A DNA stretch of 64,000 nucleotides, from NCBI RefSeq assembly GCF_030013595.1, contig NZ_CP122768.1; one strand, written 5' to 3'. How positions within the stretch are numbered: the stretch's first letter is position 1; each line of letters starts with the position of its first letter. The DNA comes from Escherichia coli. Lineage in GTDB: Bacteria > Pseudomonadota > Gammaproteobacteria > Enterobacterales > Enterobacteriaceae. The position numbers are program-made. Positions 17,001 to 20,000 of this stretch are shown here, piece after piece.

Positions 17001-20000
17001 AAAGCGTTATTCGACACTGTTAGCCTCCACATGCGTCATTGCAGCCGTCGTTTTGCGATTCAAAATCGGGTTAAGGATCAGATAGCTCAGCGCGCCACCT
17101 AATACCGCGTTGACCGGAACAATACCCGGTAACCAGTGGCCTGCGGCAATCCCCAGCGCGACCGCCAGAATCGCCACCCAATTGACACTCATCATACGCG
17201 TGGTCGCAAAGTGCTCATAGCGGCGACGGTTCATCAGATAGTCAGCGATGATCACGCCCCCTACCGGAGGAATAGCTGCCGAAAGGAAGGTCAGCCAGCC
17301 GACAAAATTGTTATACAACCATAATGCGCAGACCGTACCGATAATACCGTTAATCACCGAAAGGGTTTTACTCGACATACCGGTAATGTTGGCGAAACCT
17401 AAACCCGACGCATAGAGCGCGTTATCGTTGGTGGTCCAGATATTCAGCCCCAGCACCACAATCGCAGGCAGCAGCAGACCCTGAGCAATCATCACATCAG
17501 AGATATCCGCCATCCCCAGTGCCGCAGCGCCCGCTGCACCGAAAATAAACATCAACGAGTTGCCGAGGAAAAAGGCCACCATCGCCACCAGCACCGCCAG
17601 TTTGGCATTGCGACCAAACCGGACAAAGTCAGCGGTGAGCGTGCCCGCGCTGATAAATGACCCCACAACCAGCGCCAGTGCGACATTGAAATCTAACGGT
17701 TGTGCGGGAACGACCGCTTTTAATGCGTCCAGGCCGCCCATGCCGTTAACGGCCAGCCACACGGAATAACCGCCAAGGCAGGCGATAGCCGGAACCGCAA
17801 TCACCGAAAGAACCGTCAGCGCCGAAATGCCAAAGAAGACGGTGACGGTCATCAGTAAACCGGAGACGGCAATCAGCAAATTAATATCCAGCCCGGTTGC
17901 CTTGCCCACCGGAATAGCAAACATCGCCACGCCAACGCCAAACCAGCCAACCTGGGTACCCCCCAGCAGCAGTGAAGGCAGCCATGAGCCTTTAACACCA
18001 AACGAGAAGCGAGCAAGAAGATGGGTGGTCAGGCCGGTTTTTGCGCCAATGTAACCAAGAAATGAAGTGTAAATACCGAGGAGAAGATTACCGATGAGGA
18101 CTGCGAGGAAGAAATCATGATAGCTAAGACCGGTTCCGAGAGTGCCGCCGGTCCACATACTGGCGGAAAAGAAGGTTAATCCCAGCATGACGAACGTCAA
18201 TGCCAATACCCCTTTCCGCGCCGACTGCGGGACTGGCCCCTGGCTAAAGTTGTTATCTTGCGACACGAAATTCCCCCTTTTTGCTGTTTGAAACCCAAAA
18301 AATCCGCCGCATTCTATTCATCTGAAGATAAAAAGCAATCGTTTTCGTGGGGGAATATATTTTTTATATGAATGAGTGCAAAAAGGTGGGGGAAAAATTA
18401 TCGGTGTAAAAACAGTGGGTAGGTATGAGAAGACGCGTCAGCGTCGCATCTGGCATCGGCGCATGGTGTCGAATGCGCCACGCGACGCATCCGACAACAA
18501 CCTACTCTTCTATCGCCTGGCGGATCTGATCCAACGACGCAGGATCATCAATGGTCGTCAGATCCCCAGGATCGCGTTTTCGGCAATTGCGAGACAAACC
18601 AGACGTGCGCCGGGCGACCAAAGTTGCCAATCTGGCTGTCCACCAGCGCCATAATCGCCTTCTCTTGCGAATGCGCCACCTCGCGGTCTTCCAGACTGTC
18701 GCTCTCTTTCGGAATGACAAACGCCACCGCCACCTGCCCTTTCAGCGCATCTTTCACCCCAACCACCGCCACTTCGGCAACGCCCGGATGACTGGAGATA
18801 CTCTCTTCAATCTCGCGCGTCCCCAGCCGATGCCCGGCAACGTTAATCACATCGTCAGTGCGCCCGAGAATAAAGTGATAACCGTCAGCATCGCGGATAC
18901 CCCAGTCAAAAGTGGCGTACACCGGACGGGAAAACAGCGACCAGTACGTCTTCACAAAGCGGTCGTCGTCGCCCCAGATGGTCTGAATACAGCCCGGCGG
19001 CAGCGGCCCTTCTACCACCAGCATCCCTTTCTCGTTGACGCCACACGGTTCGCCGGTGACTTCATTAAGCAACTGCACGTTATAGCCATACATCGGCACG
19101 CCGGGGCTTCCCAGACGCGTCGGCCTGTCGTCCAGACCGCGAGCAATCGCCATAATCGGCCAGCCGGATTCGGTCTGCCAGTAGTTGTCGATGACCGGCA
19201 CATCCAGCGTATTGCTCACCCAACTGGCGGTCGGCTCGTCCAGCGGTTCTCCAGCCAGATAGAGCACTTCCAGCGACGAGAGATCGTGTTTGCGAATTTC
19301 AGCGGTAGGGAATTTTTTCAGCACGCGAATGGCGGTCGGCGCTGAGAACATGCGGCTAACCTGATATTTCTCGACGATTTTCCACCACACGCCGCAGTCC
19401 GGCCAGGTCGGTAATCCTTCGTAAACGATAGTCGCCATCCCCGCCAGCAGCGGCGCGTAGACGATATACGAATGCCCCACCACCCAGCCGATATCCGAAG
19501 CACAAAAGAACACACCGCCCGCTTTGCCGCCAAAAATGGTGTCCATCGAGGTCGCCAGCGCCACCGCATATCCGCCGACGTCACGCTGCACGCCTTTAGG
19601 TTTGCCGGTCGTGCCGGAGGTGTAAAGAATGCAGGAGGTTTCGTTGGATTCCAGCCACGCCACTGGCACCCGCGCGCCGATGTGTTGATGGCGCAACGAC
19701 GCGAAATCGACATCCCGCCCGCTGACGCGCGCCATTTTCGCCAGCCCGCGATCCACCAGTAAAACGTGGCGCGGCTGATGCTGCGCCTGACTTATCGCAT
19801 CGTCGAGTAATTTTTTATAGGGAATGATTTTGCCACCGCGCGCTCCGGCATCAGCCGAGACAATCAGCACCGGTTTAGCATCATCAATTCGCGCCGCCAC
19901 GCTGTGCGAGGCAAATCCCCCAAACACCACCGAGTGAATAGCGCCAATGCGCGCGCAGGCCAGCAGAGTAATATGCGCTTCGGCAATCATCGGCATATAC

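What the first reader, a model, noticed from the sequence alone, without database searches (positions are those of the whole stretch)
18502..18600. prpE carries a frameshifting ~50-bp deletion that removes the catalytic-lysine motif
Seen: the prpE frame ends ...SQLPKTRSWGSDDH*, while the rest of the C-terminus (..RDPGDLTTIDDPASLDQIRQAIEE) continues in a different frame to a stop at 18502. The junction lies at ACGCGATCC (rc of 18569-18577). Established: acyl/propionyl-CoA synthetases need the C-terminal PKTRSGK lysine; K-12 PrpE is 628 aa, and the observed span plus 50 nt equals exactly 629 codons. Inference: a 50-bp deletion between short direct repeats yields an inactive enzyme, which could impair propionate use unless Acs substitutes.
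Basis: partly seen in the sequence, partly recalled or inferred. Interest (0 to 1): 0.6.

Follow-up and report, generated by a model that had tools for sequence, protein, structure and literature searches.

The report
Recurrent 50-bp deletion inactivating prpE
The propionate-activating gene prpE in this E. coli has lost 50 bases between two 9-base repeats, removing its catalytic lysine; this is an ordinary pseudogene, but the identical deletion has arisen independently in at least six E. coli lineages.

Summary
prpE (minus strand, ORF 18548-20338) lacks exactly 50 bp relative to intact alleles. The ancestral sequence has two ACGCGATCC copies 50 nt apart, and the window keeps one (18569-18577). 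The reading frame shifts after Ser590, so Gly591-Lys592 of the PKTRSGK (A10) motif and the last 38 residues are replaced by WGSDDH*. It is not an assembly artefact: the window shows no other small indel against its closest relative over about 48 kb. The same junction occurs in 16 of 5,426 complete genomes, where PGAP calls prpE "frameshifted". The window's exact truncated protein is found on at least 24 independent contigs. The deletion sits on 7 local haplotypes. Six of these have near-identical intact sister alleles, so it recurred at least six times and did not spread from one origin. Deletions at 4 of the 5 other short-repeat pairs in prpE also occur in natural genomes. None occurs at 8 comparable pairs in prpB, prpC, prpD and codA (Fisher p=0.003), so loss of prpE is specifically tolerated, presumably because Acs and Pta/kinase routes also make propionyl-CoA. 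prpR and prpBCD are intact. Loss of enzyme activity and a mild phenotype are inferred, not measured. Verdict: a real, ordinary pseudogene with a modestly interesting mutational hot spot.

The parts
18548..20338 (-). Truncated prpE reading frame (596 aa). Residues 1-590 are native PrpE; the last 6 (WGSDDH) are frameshifted before a premature stop.
   Evidence: ORF list and translation. TIGR02316 matches 1-590 of 628. Identical alleles are annotated 'frameshifted' pseudogenes by PGAP.
18569..18577 (-). Deletion junction: the single retained copy of the 9-bp direct repeat ACGCGATCC. The ancestral allele has two copies 50 nt apart (gene positions 1762 and 1812).
   Evidence: Pairwise alignment with intact prpE, multi-genome alignments and repeat positions in the intact gene.
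18502..18568 (-). Out-of-frame remnant of the original prpE C-terminus (...PGDLTTIDDPASLDQIRQAIEE*), no longer translated in the prpE frame. It carries a lineage-specific substitution at 18511 (ATG to ATA).
   Evidence: The SNP at 18511 is shared with L011 and absent from all other haplotypes.
20378..21829 (-). prpD (2-methylcitrate dehydratase), intact.
   Evidence: 483-aa ORF. Identical to the annotated intact gene of HCP5S3_I2: no difference between 19101 and 26430.
21863..23032 (-). prpC (2-methylcitrate synthase), intact.
   Evidence: 389-aa ORF. Identical to HCP5S3_I2.
23077..23967 (-). prpB (2-methylisocitrate lyase), intact.
   Evidence: 296-aa ORF. Identical to HCP5S3_I2.
24194..25792 (+). 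prpR (sigma-54-dependent activator of prpBCDE), intact. The mechanical ORF starts at a TTG; the annotated protein in the relatives is 528 aa.
   Evidence: Identical to HCP5S3_I2.

Best explanation
prpE in this strain is a genuine pseudogene, made by a 50-bp deletion between two 9-bp direct repeats (ACGCGATCC). The likely mechanism is mispairing of the repeats during replication (slippage) or annealing of the repeats after a break. The product keeps the N-terminal adenylate-forming domain but lacks Gly591-Lys592 of the A10 motif and the final 38 residues, so it should be unable to form propionyl-AMP. The rest of the 2-methylcitrate pathway (prpR, prpBCD) is intact. The cell therefore probably still handles propionyl-CoA, and propionate is activated, less specifically, by Acs or by the kinase/Pta routes. 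The site is a mutational hot spot: the identical deletion arose independently at least six times in E. coli. prpE also accumulates other short-repeat deletions that its neighbours do not, which indicates that losing PrpE costs little. Shown here: the deletion, its boundaries, its recurrence and its specificity to prpE. Inferred: loss of activity, compensation by Acs, and the molecular route of deletion.
For: Anatomy. Family and truncation: (model positions 1-590 of 628). The LPKTRSGK motif aligns with solved homologues (5gxd, Acs structures). Lys592 requirement. Not an artefact: no other small indel against sister genome HCP5S3_I2 across 1-47818, with 17 SNPs. The exact truncated protein is on at least 24 contigs, and L011 differs from the window by 2 of 9,791 nt. 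A junction-specific 44-mer hits 16 of 5,426 complete genomes, all four inspected being annotated 'frameshifted'. The APEC O78-type truncated protein is on 413 contigs. Independent origins: the deletion lies on 7 local haplotypes differing at -121...-4 and +28...+67 nt from the junction. Six have intact sisters differing by 0-2 substitutions in about 6 kb, or about 100% identical over 3.4 kb. The lineages differ from each other by 2-4%. prpE-specific tolerance: predicted deletion junctions for 4 of the 5 other repeat pairs in prpE exist in natural genomes, against 0 of 8 pairs in prpB, prpC, prpD and codA; Fisher p=0.003. Redundant routes to propionyl-CoA.
Against: No reads, enzyme assay or growth data exist for this strain. 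acs, pta and ackA are outside the window, so compensation cannot be checked. The junction test needs an exact 28-mer and used only three haplotypes, so it under-counts alleles in both the prpE set and the control set. The control has only 8 repeat pairs. Slippage was not distinguished from break-and-anneal: the intervening DNA folds no better than shuffled sequence, and no reciprocal 50-bp duplication was found. The truncated protein might keep the thioester-forming half-reaction or some other activity.
Confidence: 0.88

Rival explanations
1. Sequencing or assembly artefact: the isolate really has an intact prpE and the 50 bases were lost during assembly.
For: prpE frameshifts in another E. 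coli assembly were shown by Sanger sequencing to be errors (PMC7360682). No reads are available for this window.
Against: Typical errors are 1-2 nt homopolymer indels, not a 50-bp loss bounded by repeats. The window has no other small indel against its sister over about 48 kb. The identical allele on the identical haplotype occurs in other assemblies (L011 plus 16 similar contigs). The junction is present in 16 complete genomes sequenced by different groups.
Confidence: 0.03
2. Single origin: the deletion arose once and spread among lineages by homologous recombination.
For: E. coli recombines. L020 shares the whole prpE allele with APEC O78 while differing in prpD and downstream. L018 looks mosaic near the junction. 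So some carriers may share an origin.
Against: Six carrier haplotypes match intact sister alleles on both sides of the junction for kilobases yet differ from each other at sites as close as -4, -40, +28 and +34 nt. Each transfer would need a tract of only tens to about 140 bp. Other repeat pairs in the same gene show analogous deletions, as expected for a mutational process.
Confidence: 0.05
3. Adaptive loss: inactivation of PrpE is positively selected, for example in animals exposed to propionate in the gut or in feed, rather than merely tolerated.
For: Deletions recur at 5 of 6 repeat pairs in prpE but at none in the neighbours. One carrier clone is very successful: the APEC O78 type is on 413 contigs. 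Most complete-genome carriers come from poultry or pigs, and the window's relatives come from pig faeces.
Against: The allele is rare overall (16 of 5,426 complete genomes). The 13 poultry genomes are one clone, so host association rests on about three events. The intact sisters of other carrier haplotypes come from humans, dogs and lake water. Relaxed constraint through redundancy with Acs explains the same pattern. The lethality or toxicity of prpB/C/D defects (2-methylcitrate accumulation; my own knowledge of Horswill et al. 2001) explains why the neighbours lack deletions.
Confidence: 0.12
4. The truncated gene is still functional, either through programmed frameshifting that rejoins the downstream frame or as a shortened enzyme.
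For: The N-terminal domain and most of the C-terminal domain are intact. The downstream frame remains open to the original stop.
Against: The codons for Gly591-Lys592 and 15 further residues are physically absent, so no frameshift can restore the A10 lysine. [quoted passage not shown] The tail has already acquired a substitution (18511).
Confidence: 0.03

Closest known systems
prpE pseudogene of E. coli APEC O78 (NC_020163.1, APECO78_RS05385, annotated 'frameshifted') and 15 other complete genomes
   Same: Identical 44-nt junction and the same 50-bp deletion between the ACGCGATCC repeats. The product has the same length (596 aa) and the same WGSDDH* tail.
   Different: The nucleotide background differs by 2.1-2.7% around the gene, and the protein differs by two amino acids. 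The window's allele arose separately on the HCP5S3_I2-like haplotype.
Deletions between short direct repeats (slipped mispairing or microhomology-mediated deletion), classically mapped in E. coli lacI (Farabaugh 1978; Albertini 1982; from my own knowledge)
   Same: Exact short repeats flank the lost segment in the ancestor, one copy is retained, and the deletion length equals the repeat spacing. The same end points recur.
   Different: These alleles are fixed in natural lineages, not laboratory mutants. The repeats lie in a dense GATC cluster (7 sites in about 100 nt), and its influence is untested.
Salmonella enterica PrpE Lys592 variants, and propionylated or acetylated K592 (Horswill & Escalante-Semerena 2002; Garrity et al. 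2007)
   Same: The enzyme lacks a usable A10 lysine, which abolishes the adenylation half-reaction.
   Different: Here the lysine and the whole last 38 residues are removed and replaced by six unrelated residues. The loss is permanent, not a regulatory modification or a point mutation.
Other natural prpE deletion alleles: 75 bp in EPEC E2348/69, 39 bp in FDAARGOS_944, 119 bp in ET151/ET450, 105 bp in H9Ecoli
   Same: Same gene and same class of event, each between a 9-11-bp direct-repeat pair.
   Different: The repeat pairs and lengths differ. Three are in frame (39, 75 and 105 bp). Each was seen in few genomes, whereas the 50-bp allele has at least six origins.

Membership tests
PrpE, propionate--CoA ligase (NCBIfam TIGR02316 / NF007815 equivalogs) | Whole-protein score above the curated cutoff | tested here: met
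   1222 bits against a cutoff of 827 (TIGR02316), and 1161 against 955 (NF007815).
PrpE, propionate--CoA ligase (NCBIfam TIGR02316 / NF007815 equivalogs) | Full-length match to the 628-position model | tested here: not met
   Only model positions 1-590 are matched. The last 38 positions are missing from the reading frame.
PrpE, propionate--CoA ligase (NCBIfam TIGR02316 / NF007815 equivalogs) | Last gene of the prpBCDE operon, divergent from prpR | tested here: met
   The order prpR / prpB-prpC-prpD-prpE / codBA matches annotated genomes.
Catalytically competent ANL (adenylate-forming) acyl-CoA synthetase | A10 motif PKTRSGK with the catalytic lysine (Lys592 in PrpE, Lys609 in Acs) | tested here: not met
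   The frame reads PKTRS-WGSDDH*. The codons for Gly591-Lys592 lie inside the deleted 50 bp. The motif is conserved in solved homologues. Its requirement is from the literature.
Catalytically competent ANL (adenylate-forming) acyl-CoA synthetase | N-terminal AMP-binding motif (YTSGTTGKPKG) | tested here: met
   ILYTSGTTGKPKGV is present in the ORF translation. Pfam AMP-binding is recorded for the identical product.
Catalytically competent ANL (adenylate-forming) acyl-CoA synthetase | Measured propionyl-CoA synthetase activity | not testable with these tools
   Needs an enzyme assay of the 596-aa protein.
Short-direct-repeat (slippage or microhomology) deletion | The ancestral allele has two identical direct repeats bounding the lost segment, and the derived allele keeps exactly one | tested here: met
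   ACGCGATCC lies at gene positions 1762 and 1812 in intact alleles, with a single copy in the window.
Short-direct-repeat (slippage or microhomology) deletion | Deletion length equals the repeat-to-repeat spacing | tested here: met
   The spacing is 50 nt and the gap is 50 nt.
Short-direct-repeat (slippage or microhomology) deletion | The same end points recur independently (hot-spot behaviour) | tested here: met
   Seven local haplotypes carry the deletion, and six have near-identical intact sisters.
Short-direct-repeat (slippage or microhomology) deletion | Secondary structure between the repeats that promotes slippage | tested here: not met
   DNA folds of both strands and two haplotypes are no more stable than shuffles (z = +0.8 to +1.2). 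This feature is not required for the class.
Programmed ribosomal frameshift (recoding) gene | Frameshifting yields a complete functional product | tested here: not met
   Seventeen codons, including Lys592, are absent from the DNA, so joining the two frames cannot rebuild the motif.

The most novel reading that the evidence does not exclude
The prpE 3' end is a sequence-programmed deletion hot spot. The two repeats, plus a third partial copy, are GATC-containing units spaced 25 nt apart inside a cluster of seven Dam sites. Processing of this cluster (SeqA binding, MutH nicking or breaks followed by annealing of the repeats) would raise the local deletion rate. Repeated loss of PrpE would then be favoured, or at least enriched, in propionate-rich animal hosts. 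That would make this a case of convergent, mechanism-biased gene loss and not plain decay.
Probability: 0.1. Interest if true: 0.55.

Novelty: new member of a known kind. Interest (0 to 1): 0.3.

Why it matters
For this genome, prpE should be annotated as a pseudogene, and propionate activation must be assigned to Acs or other routes in any metabolic model or phenotype prediction. More generally, the same 50-bp deletion has arisen at least six times. prpE alone among its neighbours collects short-repeat deletions. This makes a clean natural example of how local sequence (short repeats) and functional redundancy together make gene loss predictable. The allele is homoplasic, so it should not be used as a clonal marker. 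I found no paper describing it. It does not reveal a new kind of system.

Tried and rejected
1. Hairpin-assisted slippage. DNA folding of repeat-spacer-repeat on both strands and two haplotypes was no better than shuffled sequence, so this was rejected as unsupported.

2. Reciprocal 50-bp tandem duplication as a signature of slippage. The predicted junction gave only 28-nt partial matches to intact alleles and no duplication. This does not discriminate between mechanisms.

3. First design of the control junction query. It shared 28-mers with intact genes, so it was redesigned with shorter flanks and spacers.

4. Literature search for this allele (prpE with pseudogene, frameshift, deletion or APEC). 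No description was found. One paper reported prpE frameshifts that were sequencing errors in another strain.

5. The original PrpE papers (PubMed 10411265) are not held in the library. Their conclusions are cited through reference lists and reviews, and otherwise from my own knowledge.

6. Single origin with recombinational spread was considered and rejected for most carriers on flanking haplotypes. It remains possible for L020, and perhaps L018, relative to APEC O78.

7. Metagenome and GTDB scans for the junction were not run, because the assembly look-ups already gave hundreds of contigs.

Full report
**What is in the sequence.** On the minus strand, the window carries prpR (divergent), then prpB, prpC, prpD and prpE, followed by codB and codA. 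This is the order annotated in related E. coli genomes. The prpE reading frame runs from 20338 to 18548 and encodes 596 residues ending ...SQLPKTRSWGSDDH*. A second frame continues with ...RDPGDLTTIDDPASLDQIRQAIEE* to a stop at 18502. The NCBIfam PrpE equivalog TIGR02316 identifies the protein firmly (1222 bits, cutoff 827), but only over model positions 1-590 of 628.

**The deletion.** I aligned the window with the intact prpE of E. coli HCP5S3_I2, the closest complete genome. The alignment shows one gap of exactly 50 nt and no other indel. The intact allele reads CCGAAA-ACGCGATCC-GGAAAAATGCTGCGCCGCACGATCCAGGCGATTTGTGAAGG-ACGCGATCC-TGGGG. The window keeps one ACGCGATCC, the reverse complement of 18569-18577. 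The lost piece is therefore one repeat copy plus the 41-nt spacer.

The intact product is 628 aa and reads ...LPKTRSGKMLRRTIQAICEGRDPGDL.... Native sequence in the window ends at Ser590, so Gly591, Lys592 and the following 15 codons are physically missing, and the remaining 21 codons are out of frame.

**Is it real?** Against HCP5S3_I2, window positions 1-47818 show 17 substitutions and no indel other than this deletion. The window is therefore not an indel-prone assembly.

- I designed a 44-nt junction query so that intact alleles cannot seed a match. It hits 16 of 5,426 complete E. coli genomes at 100%. In the four I inspected, PGAP annotates prpE as a 'frameshifted' pseudogene.
- The window's exact 596-aa product is encoded on at least 24 contigs from independent NCBI and Logan assemblies.
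- One of these contigs, L011, differs from the window by 2 of 9,791 nt, and it stands for 16 further similar contigs.

An artefact private to this assembly is therefore very unlikely, although I cannot inspect this isolate's reads.

**One origin or many?** The 16 complete-genome carriers form two groups.

- Thirteen APEC O78-like genomes are identical over 5 kb. Their intact sisters, such as strain 789 and APEC E19057, differ by 0 substitutions in 6 kb apart from the 50 bp.
- Three Japanese pig isolates (EC556, EC571, EC581) have the intact sister K_EC180, which differs by 1 substitution.
- The window is a third lineage. Its intact sisters HCP5S3_I2 and LCP30S3_I5 differ by 2 substitutions in 5.9 kb.

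These three backgrounds differ from one another by 2.1-2.7%. Contigs that encode the same truncated proteins add further backgrounds: L012/L014, L013, L015 and L018.

In total, seven local haplotypes carry the deletion. They differ at -121, -109, -106, -103, -94, -40 and -4 nt on one side of the junction, and at +28, +34, +58 and +67 nt on the other. L012, L013 and L015 also have intact sister alleles at about 100% identity over 3.4 kb.

Spread from a single origin would need repeated recombination tracts of only tens to about 140 bp that carried no flanking marker. Independent recurrence, at least six times, is the economical reading. L020 shares the whole prpE allele with APEC O78 and may share its origin, and L018 is ambiguous.

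**Is prpE special?** Intact prpE has six direct-repeat pairs of 9-11 bp lying within 150 nt of each other. I built the predicted deletion junction for the other five pairs and found four of them in natural genomes:

- 105 bp in H9Ecoli;
- 119 bp in ET151 and ET450;
- 39 bp in FDAARGOS_944 and two others;
- 75 bp in four assemblies of EPEC E2348/69.

The same test on all eight comparable pairs in prpB, prpC, prpD and codA gave no hit (codB has no such pair). The contrast of 5/6 against 0/8 gives Fisher p = 0.003. The test needs an exact 28-mer and used three haplotypes, so it under-counts, but it does so equally for both sets. The result indicates that loss of PrpE is tolerated where loss of its neighbours is not.

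[quoted passage not shown] Its acylation by Pat abolishes activity (Garrity 2007, table in PMC6640162). The motif LPKTRSGK aligns with solved homologues (5gxd, Acs structures). I therefore infer that the truncated protein cannot carry out the adenylation step.

Propionate can also be activated by Acs and by the kinase/Pta routes (PMC7360682; PMC9765439). From my own knowledge, Salmonella prpE mutants still grow on propionate unless acs is also lost (Horswill & Escalante-Semerena 1999; that paper is not held in the library). prpR and prpBCD in the window are identical to the intact genes of HCP5S3_I2, so the 2-methylcitrate cycle itself is retained. The likely phenotype is mild. None of this was measured, and acs lies outside the window.

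**Mechanism of deletion.** The anatomy is that of a short-direct-repeat deletion.

- The spacer does not form a hairpin beyond chance (z = +0.8 to +1.2).
- The reciprocal 50-bp duplication is not seen.
- I therefore cannot separate replication slippage from break-and-anneal.

One feature is unexplained. Seven of the ten GATC sites in prpE lie in its last 100 nt. The first three are 25 nt apart, and each 9-bp repeat contains one. A prpE GATC cluster was noted in PMC493266. Whether Dam-site processing contributes to the hot spot is speculation.

**Comparison and novelty.** The allele is the same as the annotated 'frameshifted' prpE of APEC O78, but it arose separately. The event belongs to the classical class of deletions between short repeats, known from lacI. 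I found no paper describing this recurrent prpE deletion.

**Verdict.** This is a real, ordinary pseudogene of a well-known mutational kind. The added interest is a well-documented natural hot spot and a gene-specific tolerance of loss. Interest is 0.3.

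Noticed in passing
window 47819-49147 (target duplications 47810-47818 and 49148-49156): A complete IS10 (1,329 bp) interrupts the autotransporter adhesin gene ehaA, splitting it into ORFs 45256..47874 and 49144..50643. The element has a 402-aa IS4-family transposase ORF at 47926..49134, ends CTGATGAATCCCC... and ...GGGGATCTCTCAG, and a 9-bp target duplication AACTCAGCA. The insertion is absent from the sister genome HCP5S3_I2.
   Followed up: partly
window 18500-18600; gene positions 1766-1863 of intact prpE (L001): Seven of the ten GATC (Dam) sites in prpE lie within its last 100 nt. 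The first three are spaced 25 nt apart. Both 9-bp deletion repeats and a partial third copy (ACGATCC) contain GATC. A prpE GATC cluster is mentioned in PMC493266. Its relation to the deletion hot spot is untested.
   Followed up: partly
other genomes: H172-H181 (prpE of H9Ecoli, ET151, ET450, FDAARGOS_944, OZ546925, OZ546911, E2348/69): Other natural prpE alleles carry deletions of 105, 119, 39 and 75 bp, each exactly between another 9-11-bp direct-repeat pair. The reference EPEC strain E2348/69 has the 75-bp deletion.
   Followed up: partly
window about 18423 (prpE-codB intergenic region): The intergenic region between prpE and codB is indel-polymorphic between lineages. A block of about 95 nt that looks like a REP-type element is present in the APEC O78 type and absent in the window, and L013 has about 750 nt of extra DNA there.
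   Followed up: no
window 18511: A lineage-specific substitution (ATG to ATA, Met626Ile in the old frame) lies in the now untranslated prpE tail. It is shared with L011 and absent from the intact sister and all other haplotypes. It fits with relaxed constraint after the deletion, but it is a single site.
   Followed up: partly
L012 and L014 (loci 8815-9791): In these deletion-carrying contigs codA is followed directly by lacA and lacY, so the cynR-cynTSX block present in the window is missing in that lineage.
   Followed up: no
window 31886-31887: Two adjacent substitutions (AA against GG) separate the window from HCP5S3_I2. They are the only doublet among about 30 differences in 64 kb.
   Followed up: no
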